A stretch of DNA of 64,000 bases from Escherichia coli (GTDB lineage Bacteria > Pseudomonadota > Gammaproteobacteria > Enterobacterales > Enterobacteriaceae). The notes below the pieces were generated by a model, which made no database searches, was not told where the DNA came from, and saw only the letters and a program-made list of their open reading frames with translations. The first letter of the stretch is position 1. Each line of letters starts with the position of its first letter. The stretch is taken from assembly GCF_003334405.1 (NCBI RefSeq), contig NZ_QOWM01000005.1; one strand, written 5' to 3'. Position numbers and translations under genes: made by a program. Shown here one piece after another: positions 46,041 to 46,071 of the stretch.

Positions 46041-46071
46041 TTTACCTCAAGTTAACTTGAGGAATTATACT
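46041..46071 (+). promoter_or_regulatory. soxS promoter with SoxR operator: -35 TTTACC, 18-bp perfect palindrome CCTCAAGTTAACTTGAGG in a 19-bp spacer, -10 TATACT
   Basis: Read directly; palindrome 46045-46062 lies between hexamers, typical MerR-type over-long spacer. Confidence 0.85.

What the first reader, a model, noticed from the sequence alone, without database searches (positions are those of the whole stretch)
46041..46071. soxS promoter with perfect 18-bp SoxR palindrome inside a 19-bp spacer
CCTCAAGTTAACTTGAGG (46045-46062) is a perfect palindrome between TTTACC and TATACT hexamers, which are separated by 19 bp rather than the optimal 17. This is the MerR-type architecture in which the bound regulator untwists the spacer on activation. 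It is fully readable from sequence and matches known soxRS biology.
Basis: partly seen in the sequence, partly recalled or inferred. Interest (0 to 1): 0.25.

Follow-up and report, generated by a model that had tools for sequence, protein, structure and literature searches.

The report
The known E. coli soxS promoter
This is the textbook E. coli soxS promoter, where the oxidative-stress sensor SoxR binds a perfect 18-bp palindrome between promoter elements set 19 bp apart; it is real, extremely conserved and already fully explained.

Summary
One small correction: the palindrome overlaps the last 2 bp of the -35 hexamer, so it is not strictly inside the spacer.

The flanking genes pass the curated SoxR and SoxS models and are divergent, 85 bp apart. 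The 18-mer is letter for letter the published E. coli SoxR box.

A perfect 18-bp palindrome is not rare by chance (47 of 200 shuffles have one). The case rests on sequence identity, position and conservation. In an arbitrary sample of soxS orthologue loci found through a coding motif, not through the box, 87 of 88 carry the exact box and hexamers. In 75 sequences from 28 named genera, a 33-bp block (46040-46072) is invariant, while no other invariant run in soxR or soxS exceeds 5 bp.

The block runs past the palindrome. The likely reason is that the minus strand reads TATAAT at 46069-46064, an inferred soxR -10 overlapping the soxS -10. This fits the published bidirectional promoter and SoxR autorepression.

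Verdict: already known, a MerR-type DNA-distortion promoter; low interest. By-product: E. coli strain E138 has an IS1 inserted in this promoter.

The parts
46041..46046 (+). soxS -35 hexamer TTTACC (4 of 6 matches to TTGACA)
   Evidence: Read directly. Best hexamer assignment in the 15-20 bp spacer scan. Invariant in 88 of 88 orthologue loci.
46045..46062 (.). SoxR operator (SoxR box): perfect 18-bp palindrome CCTCAAGTTAACTTGAGG, dyad centre between 46053 and 46054
   Evidence: Identical to the E. coli SoxR box quoted in PMC4411124. Exact in 87 of 88 soxS orthologue loci, and at least 7 mismatches in all 25 paralogue loci.
46047..46065 (+). 19-bp spacer between the soxS -35 and -10, 2 bp longer than the 17-bp optimum
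   Evidence: Counted. Same length in all 88 loci. The 19-nt soxS spacer is stated in PMC9303308.
46066..46071 (+). soxS -10 hexamer TATACT (5 of 6 matches to TATAAT)
   Evidence: Invariant in 88 of 88 loci.
46040..46072 (.). 33-bp ultraconserved core of the bidirectional soxR/soxS promoter: CTTTACCTCAAGTTAACTTGAGGAATTATACTC
   Evidence: Invariant in 75 sequences (the window plus 74 loci) from 28 named genera; only L099 differs. The next-longest invariant run in about 880 bp covering both coding sequences is 5 bp. The rest of the intergenic region is 54% identical to the window.
46064..46069 (-). Inferred soxR -10 hexamer: a perfect TATAAT on the minus strand, overlapping the soxS -10 by 4 bp
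   Evidence: Best minus-strand hexamer pair. Lies inside the invariant block. PMC9067924 describes a bidirectional PsoxR/PsoxS promoter with overlapping regulatory components. The exact position is my inference.
46087..46093 (-). Inferred soxR -35 region: TCGTTA with a 17-bp spacer, or TTCGTT with an 18-bp spacer
   Evidence: At fixed offset from the block, A46092 is 99%, C46090 93% and A46093 81% conserved among 69 distinct sequences. Inference; weak match to consensus.
46078..46079 (+). Inferred soxS transcription start: C-A, 7-8 nt downstream of the -10
   Evidence: C46078 is 91% and A46079 97% conserved at fixed offset, while neighbouring positions vary. Position inferred from geometry, not mapped here.
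46119..46442 (+). soxS, the AraC-family activator of the superoxide regulon (107 aa)
   Evidence: NF007584, 228 bits against a cut-off of 174. RefSeq annotation of identical DNA.
45569..46033 (-). soxR, a MerR-family [2Fe-2S] redox sensor (154 aa), with Cys119, Cys122, Cys124 and Cys130 present
   Evidence: TIGR01950, 248 bits against a cut-off of 116.9. Full-length match to PDB 2ZHG/2ZHH. Cysteine positions; the same residues are named as cluster ligands in PMC9909328.

Best explanation
This is the native E. coli soxS promoter with its SoxR operator. It is a MerR-type promoter activated by DNA distortion.

The SoxR homodimer sits permanently on the 18-bp palindrome, on the face of the DNA between the -35 (TTTACC) and the -10 (TATACT). 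The two hexamers are 19 bp apart, so they are too far apart and out of phase for sigma-70, and with reduced SoxR bound the promoter is nearly silent. One-electron oxidation of the SoxR [2Fe-2S] clusters, by redox-cycling drugs or superoxide stress, changes the protein so that it kinks and under-twists the centre of the operator (GTTAAC). That shortens and re-phases the spacer, so RNA polymerase can use both hexamers and transcribe soxS. SoxS then switches on the regulon.

The same 33-bp block also carries the divergent soxR promoter. Its minus-strand TATAAT overlaps the soxS -10, and the operator would then lie around the soxR start (my inference from this geometry). A single SoxR site would therefore also repress soxR.

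Shown here: the anatomy, the gene identities, the identity to the published box and the extreme conservation. Taken from the literature: SoxR binding, redox switching, DNA distortion and spacer-length dependence. Inferred by me: the exact soxR hexamers and the two transcription start positions.
For: - Anatomy read directly, and unique in the window.
- Best hexamer pair is TTTACC-19-TATACT on the plus strand and TCGTTA-17-TATAAT on the minus strand.
- SoxR and SoxS both pass curated equivalog cut-offs.
- SoxR matches PDB 2ZHG (the SoxR-DNA complex) and 2ZHH over its full length, and carries Cys119/122/124/130.
- The 18-mer equals the published E. coli SoxR box; published work places SoxR between -35 and -10, with reduced SoxR repressing and oxidised SoxR activating (PMC4411124).
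- The 19-nt soxS spacer and MerR-like untwisting are stated in PMC9303308. Crystal structures show bending and twisting that shorten the -35/-10 distance (PMC4551924), with a central kink of about 90 degrees (PMC9909328).
- The PsoxR/PsoxS promoter is bidirectional with overlapping elements, and SoxR is reported to repress PsoxR (PMC9067924).
- The 85-bp intergenic region, identical to window 46034-46118, sits in the primer used to build the psoxS-GFP plasmid of an oxygen-induced expression system (PMC4234026).
- Conservation: 5,420 of 5,426 complete E. coli genomes carry the region, 5,408 at 99% identity or more. The box and hexamers are exact in 87 of 88 soxS orthologue loci that were found through a coding motif. 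soxR is divergent in all 79 loci with enough flank. The 33-bp run is invariant against a maximum of 5 bp elsewhere.
Against: Nothing found here contradicts it. The limits are as follows.
- No binding, footprint or transcript data can be produced with these tools.
- The primary papers (Hidalgo & Demple 1997; Hidalgo et al. 1998; Watanabe et al. 2008; Amabile-Cuevas & Demple 1991) were not held, so their content is cited second-hand.
- PMC9067924 could not reproduce pyocyanin-dependent repression with a unidirectional PsoxR or with shortened-spacer PsoxS variants in DH5alpha. The autorepression and spacer-conversion results may therefore depend on strain or context.
- PMC9909328 notes that how the redox change is transmitted to the SoxR DNA-binding domain is still undetermined.
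- The inferred soxR -35 is a weak match (3 of 6).
Confidence: 0.97

Rival explanations
1. The palindrome is a chance feature of an AT-rich intergenic region with no specific function. The promoter would then be an ordinary weak sigma-70 promoter with an 18-bp spacer (TTACCT-18-TATACT).
For: Gapless perfect palindromes of 18 bp or more appear in 47 of 200 shuffles of the window, and two others exist in the window, one of them inside the fdhF coding sequence. An 18-bp assignment exists at 3 of 6 plus 5 of 6 matches.
Against: The exact 18-mer is the published SoxR box. It is invariant in 87 of 88 loci across 28 genera, while the flanking intergenic DNA is only 54% identical. It is absent upstream of all 25 paralogues.
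Confidence: 0.005
2. The conserved block acts mainly as an RNA or DNA hairpin, for example an attenuator or terminator in a transcript crossing the region, or a cruciform, rather than as a protein operator.
For: A perfect palindrome can in principle form a hairpin. If soxR transcription starts near 46057, part of the palindrome would be transcribed into the soxR leader (inference).
Against: The terminator scan finds no terminator-like site at the palindrome, and no T-run follows it. It lies upstream of the inferred soxS start, and only about half of it would be in the soxR leader. There is no compensatory variation at all: the sequence itself is invariant, which fits base-specific protein contacts better than a structure-only constraint. 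In the one variant, L099, the two changes break the symmetry and are not compensated.
Confidence: 0.01
3. The 33-bp invariance reflects an additional, undescribed factor or constraint acting together with SoxR. Candidates are a second protein, or a sequence-specific requirement for spacer twist or flexibility. SoxR plus two overlapping promoters would not be the whole story.
For: Invariance includes bases outside the palindrome and both plus-strand hexamers: C46040, A46063 and C46072. Conservation far exceeds that of the coding sequences.
Against: 30 of the 33 bases are accounted for by the soxS -35, the SoxR box, the soxS -10 and the minus-strand TATAAT. The remaining three bases directly flank those elements, where polymerase and SoxR backbone contacts are expected. 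No evidence for another factor was found.
Confidence: 0.03

Closest known systems
E. coli K-12 soxS promoter and SoxR operator (Amabile-Cuevas & Demple 1991; Wu & Weiss 1991; Hidalgo & Demple 1994 and 1997; Hidalgo et al. 1998; Watanabe et al. 2008, PDB 2ZHG)
   Same: It is this locus. The window 45980-46130 is 100% identical to many E. coli chromosomes annotated soxR/soxS. The box is identical to the published one. The intergenic region is identical to a published psoxS construct. The SoxR protein matches the 2ZHG chain over its full length.
   Different: Nothing.
Tn501/Tn21 mer operator-promoter (MerR)
   Same: A MerR-family regulator is encoded divergently. A dyad operator lies between the -35 and -10. 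The spacer is 19 bp and is needed for normal induction. The regulator stays bound in both states and activates by DNA distortion (PMC9303308, PMC4551924).
   Different: The signal is oxidation of a [2Fe-2S] cluster, not Hg(II) binding. The operator sequence differs. The output is a second transcription factor (SoxS), not resistance genes directly.
SoxR-regulated promoters of non-enteric bacteria, e.g. Stenotrophomonas maltophilia mfsA-soxR
   Same: A SoxR box (14 of 18 identical) lies between a -35 and -10 that are 19 bp apart. soxR is divergent and shares the -10 region, and the box covers the soxR start, giving autorepression (PMC4411124). This parallels the plus-strand TATACT and minus-strand TATAAT overlap seen here.
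   Different: There SoxR drives an effector gene (an efflux pump) directly. Here it drives only soxS, in a two-stage cascade said to be typical of enterics (PMC4411124).

Membership tests
Enterobacterial soxS promoter / SoxR box | 18-bp dyad CCTCAAGTTAACTTGAGG | tested here: met
   Exact match at 46045-46062. Same string quoted as the E. coli SoxR box in PMC4411124.
Enterobacterial soxS promoter / SoxR box | Lies directly upstream of a soxS orthologue | tested here: met
   The ORF at 46119-46442 scores 228 bits on NF007584 against a cut-off of 174. The box starts 74 nt upstream of the ATG.
Enterobacterial soxS promoter / SoxR box | Divergent soxR encoding a MerR-family protein with the CX2CXCX5C [2Fe-2S] motif | tested here: met
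   TIGR01950, 248 bits against a cut-off of 116.9. Cys119/122/124/130 present. The 85-bp intergenic region is seen. soxR is divergent in all 79 orthologue loci with enough flank.
Enterobacterial soxS promoter / SoxR box | Conserved in soxS promoters of other enterobacteria | tested here: met
   87 of 88 loci have an exact box, hexamers and spacing. These loci were found through a SoxS coding motif, not through the box. The 33-bp block is invariant in 75 sequences from 28 named genera.
MerR-type DNA-distortion promoter | Operator dyad positioned between the -35 and -10 hexamers | tested here: met
   The dyad spans 46045-46062 between hexamers at 46041-46046 and 46066-46071. It overlaps the -35 by 2 bp.
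MerR-type DNA-distortion promoter | Over-long (19-20 bp) spacer | tested here: met
   19 bp is the best-scoring assignment among spacers of 15-20 bp. The site is missed by a 16-18-bp scan. The spacing is invariant in 88 loci.
MerR-type DNA-distortion promoter | Cognate regulator belongs to the MerR family | tested here: met
   SoxR also hits the CueR, ZntR and MerR models below their cut-offs, as expected for a family member. The structure 2ZHG is described as a MerR-family fold.
MerR-type DNA-distortion promoter | Activated regulator kinks and under-twists the operator to realign -35 and -10 | not testable with these tools
   Literature only: the SoxR-DNA crystal structure as described in PMC4551924 and PMC9909328. 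The primary paper was not held.
MerR-type DNA-distortion promoter | Shortening the spacer to 17-18 bp raises basal activity and abolishes or reverses activation | not testable with these tools
   Known only from the title of Hidalgo & Demple 1997 as cited; the paper itself was not held. PMC9067924 did not reproduce the conversion to a repressor in DH5alpha.
MerR-type DNA-distortion promoter | Regulator represses its own divergent promoter from the same site | tested here: inconclusive
   The sequence fits: a minus-strand TATAAT at 46069-46064 would put the operator at or just downstream of the soxR start. The function is reported by Hidalgo et al. 1998, as cited in PMC9067924, but it was not tested here and the paper was not held.

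The most novel reading that the evidence does not exclude
The core is invariant at all 33 positions in 28 genera, whereas the longest invariant run in the neighbouring coding sequences is 5 bp. Three of the invariant bases (C46040, A46063, C46072) belong to no hexamer and are outside the palindrome. This may mean that the exact spacer and flank sequence, and not just the SoxR half-sites and the 19-bp length, is needed for the mechanical switch or for balancing the two overlapping divergent promoters. That would be a base-by-base constraint not yet dissected experimentally.
Probability: 0.1. Interest if true: 0.3.

Novelty: already known. Interest (0 to 1): 0.06.

Why it matters
It does not change current understanding. 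This is one of the best-studied bacterial redox switches and a standard part in electrogenetic and biosensor circuits. The useful outcome is a clean positive control. A sequence-only reader identified a real regulatory site correctly, and tools confirmed it. The comparison also gives a number for its conservation: a 33-bp non-coding block without a single substitution in 75 sequences from 28 enterobacterial genera. That figure may help people who design PsoxS variants. The IS1-disrupted allele in clinical strain E138 is a small lead for work on soxRS-linked drug resistance.

Tried and rejected
- The generic sigma-70 scan found nothing at the site, because it only allows 16-18-bp spacers. I replaced it with my own 15-20-bp scan.
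- I tested whether palindromy alone is significant. It is not (47 of 200 shuffles), so I dropped that argument.
- I tried to read the primary papers PMC1169705, PMC2393793, PMC1170604 and PMC328637. None is held, so I used secondary citations.
- I looked in the PMC9067924 supplement for promoter sequences that would place the PsoxR -35. It gives part lengths only.
- I decided against scanning genome contigs with the palindrome itself, because that would select for the box. I used a SoxS coding motif instead.
29 of the 120 loci were set aside: paralogues, chance hits (for example Pseudoneobacillus and a Sphingomonadales MAG) and loci where no usable ORF could be built. The 25 paralogue loci with enough upstream sequence served as negative controls.
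- I considered and rejected the hairpin/terminator and chance explanations (see the rival explanations).

Full report
**1. The observation**

Reading window 46000-46130 gives ...CGC TTTACC TCAAGTTAACTTGAGGAAT TATACT CCCCAACAG...
- TTTACC is at 46041-46046.
- The palindrome CCTCAAGTTAACTTGAGG is at 46045-46062.
- TATACT is at 46066-46071.
- The spacer between the hexamers, 46047-46065, is 19 bp.

The finding's coordinates 46041-46071 therefore span exactly 6 + 19 + 6 bp.

The repeat finder reports two 9-nt arms, 100% complementary, with no gap. The 18-mer is unique in the window, and no shuffle matched it even with three mismatches allowed.

One detail is inexact. The palindrome shares its first two bases (CC) with the -35 hexamer and ends 3 bp (AAT) before the -10. 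It is therefore not wholly 'inside' the spacer.

**2. Is it more than chance?**

Palindromy alone is not. 47 of 200 dinucleotide-preserving shuffles of the window contain at least one gapless perfect palindrome of 18 bp or more (mean 0.29). The window has three, one of them inside a coding sequence. The case has to rest on what the sequence is, where it lies, and how it is conserved.

**3. Surroundings**

- The ORF at 45569-46033 (-) is SoxR: TIGR01950, 248 bits against a curated cut-off of 116.9.
- The ORF at 46119-46442 (+) is SoxS: NF007584, 228 bits against 174.
- They are divergent and 85 bp apart.
- SoxR matches PDB chains 2ZHG_A/2ZHH over all 154 residues (E = 2.5e-101). It has cysteines at exactly 119, 122, 124 and 130, the [2Fe-2S] ligands named in PMC9909328.
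- The 151 bp around the site are present in 5,421 of 5,426 complete E. coli genomes (5,420 carry at least 80% of it), 5,408 of them at 99% identity or more, and are annotated soxR/soxS.
- The neighbours are ghxP and pdeC. The window is E. coli chromosome.

**4. Promoter assignment**

The tool's sigma-70 scan allows only 16-18-nt spacers and finds nothing here. My scan with spacers of 15-20 nt gives:
- TTTACC-19-TATACT as the best plus-strand pair (4 + 5 of 12);
- an 18-bp alternative, TTACCT, at 3 of 6;
- TCGTTA-17-TATAAT as the best minus-strand pair, with a perfect TATAAT at 46069-46064 that overlaps the soxS -10 by 4 bp.

**5. Comparative test**

To avoid selecting for the box, I scanned 100,044 species genomes for a back-translated SoxS-specific coding motif, KWYLQRMF. 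This motif lies about 175 bp downstream of the box.

The hits split cleanly into two groups:
- 91 SoxS orthologues (at least 78% identity, about 107-109 aa);
- 26 paralogues (about 50% identity, Rob-like or RamA-like).

Results for the orthologues:
- Of the 88 loci with at least 150 nt of upstream sequence, 87 carry the exact 18-mer.
- All 88 carry TTTACC and TATACT at the same 19-bp spacing.
- The single exception is Tenebrionibacter intestinalis (L099), with CCTCAAGTTAGGTTGAGG.

The 25 paralogue loci with enough upstream sequence have no match better than 7 mismatches. All 79 orthologue loci with at least 700 nt of upstream sequence have a divergent soxR at 72-100% protein identity, and intergenic lengths run from 71 to 121 nt.

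Conservation by region, in 75 sequences (the window plus 74 loci, L099 excluded) from 28 named genera (genus count made by me from the titles):

| Region | Result |
|---|---|
| Block 46040-46072 (CTTTACCTCAAGTTAACTTGAGGAATTATACTC) | invariant at all 33 positions |
| Longest other invariant run in about 880 bp covering both genes | 5 bp |
| soxR coding sequence, mean nucleotide identity to the window | 77% |
| soxS coding sequence, mean nucleotide identity to the window | 78% |
| Intergenic region downstream of the block (46073-46118) | 54% |

This is a sharp phylogenetic footprint.

**6. Why the footprint is wider than the palindrome**

The invariant block extends through AAT-TATACT-C. On the minus strand, 46069-46064 reads TATAAT.

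At fixed offsets from the block:
- A46092 (99%), C46090 (93%) and A46093 (81%) are conserved. This fits a -35-like TT.G element 17-18 bp upstream of that TATAAT.
- C46078 and A46079 (91% and 97%) fit a soxS start 7-8 nt after TATACT.

PMC9067924 describes the native element as a bidirectional PsoxR/PsoxS promoter with overlapping regulatory components. It cites Hidalgo et al. 1998 for repression of PsoxR by SoxR. PMC4411124 shows the same layout in Stenotrophomonas: a shared -10 region, with the box covering the soxR start. The exact soxR hexamers and both start sites here are my inference.

**7. Mechanism**

The mechanism comes from the literature.
- SoxR binds a dyad between -35 and -10. Reduced SoxR represses and oxidised SoxR activates (PMC4411124).
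- The soxS promoter has a 19-nt spacer and is thought to be activated like mer, by untwisting (PMC9303308).
- The SoxR-DNA and BmrR-DNA structures show bending and twisting that reorient and shorten the -35/-10 distance (PMC4551924). There is a central kink of about 90 degrees with under-twisting (PMC9909328).
- The 85-bp intergenic region, identical to window 46034-46118, sits in the primer used to build the psoxS-GFP plasmid of an oxygen-induced expression system (PMC4234026).

Caveats:
- How cluster oxidation is transmitted to the DNA-binding domain is still open.
- One group could not reproduce repression with shortened-spacer PsoxS variants or with a unidirectional PsoxR in DH5alpha.
- The four primary papers were not held.

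**8. Rivals**

- Chance palindrome: excluded by the identity to the published box and by the invariance.
- RNA or DNA hairpin: the terminator scan finds nothing at the palindrome and no T-run follows it, there is no compensatory variation, and the one natural variant breaks the symmetry without compensation.
- Extra undescribed constraint: 30 of the 33 invariant bases are explained by known or inferred elements. The three left over directly flank them.

**9. Verdict**

The feature is the canonical, experimentally established soxS promoter and SoxR operator, so it is already known and of low interest. The new contributions are quantitative: the 33-bp invariance across 28 genera, and two natural variants (IS1 in E. 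coli E138, and a 2-bp change in Tenebrionibacter).

Noticed in passing
L122 (E. coli E138, NZ_AP022351.1), corresponding to window 46059-46067: A human isolate from Osaka carries an IS1X4-family IS1 element inside the soxS promoter, with a 9-bp target duplication (GAGGAATTA). The -35 and the whole SoxR box stay on the soxR side. The -10 TATACT and soxS lie on the other side, about 0.8 kb away. soxS should therefore be uncoupled from SoxR, and either silent or driven from IS1.
   Followed up: partly
L099 (Tenebrionibacter intestinalis BIT-L3), promoter about 70 nt upstream of soxS: This is the only one of 88 soxS orthologue loci with a non-canonical box. It reads CCTCAAGTTAGGTTGAGG, with two adjacent changes in the inner right half-site that break the dyad, plus a T in place of C after TATACT. 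The hexamers and the 19-bp spacing are kept. It could be a real variant in an insect-gut bacterium or a sequencing error.
   Followed up: no
window 45436-45576 (+): The sRNA SraL/RyjA (Rfam RF01408, 153 bits) runs convergent to soxR and overlaps the last 8 nt of its coding sequence. The 13-pair hairpin at 45545-45575 has an A-run on one side and a T-run on the other. It looks like a shared bidirectional terminator for SraL and soxR.
   Followed up: partly
window 24625-24644 and 24660-24714 (+): A 20-bp perfect palindrome (CGTTATTGGTACCAATAACG) is the longest in the window. It lies inside the coding sequence of a selenoprotein gene, probably fdhF: the ORF 24248-24667 ends at an in-frame TGA and continues in frame to 26395. 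The palindrome ends 21 nt before that TGA, and the Rfam SECIS_2 element follows (87 bits). It may be coincidence.
   Followed up: partly
window 54966-54983: An AT-rich perfect 18-bp palindrome (ATTATTAAATTTAATAAT) lies in an intergenic gap between ORFs ending at 54693 and 55195. The window holds three perfect palindromes of 18 bp or more, against 0.29 expected from shuffles.
   Followed up: no
window 27183-27592, 38128-38198 and 285-365 (-): There are seven Rfam naRNA4 (REP/BIME-type repeat) hits. Five of them form a regular array with a period of about 113 bp at 27183-27592.
   Followed up: no
E. coli genome search: Three of the 5,422 matching places for the soxRS intergenic region are on records typed as plasmids, one genome has two copies, and five complete genomes have no match. 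None of these was examined.
   Followed up: no
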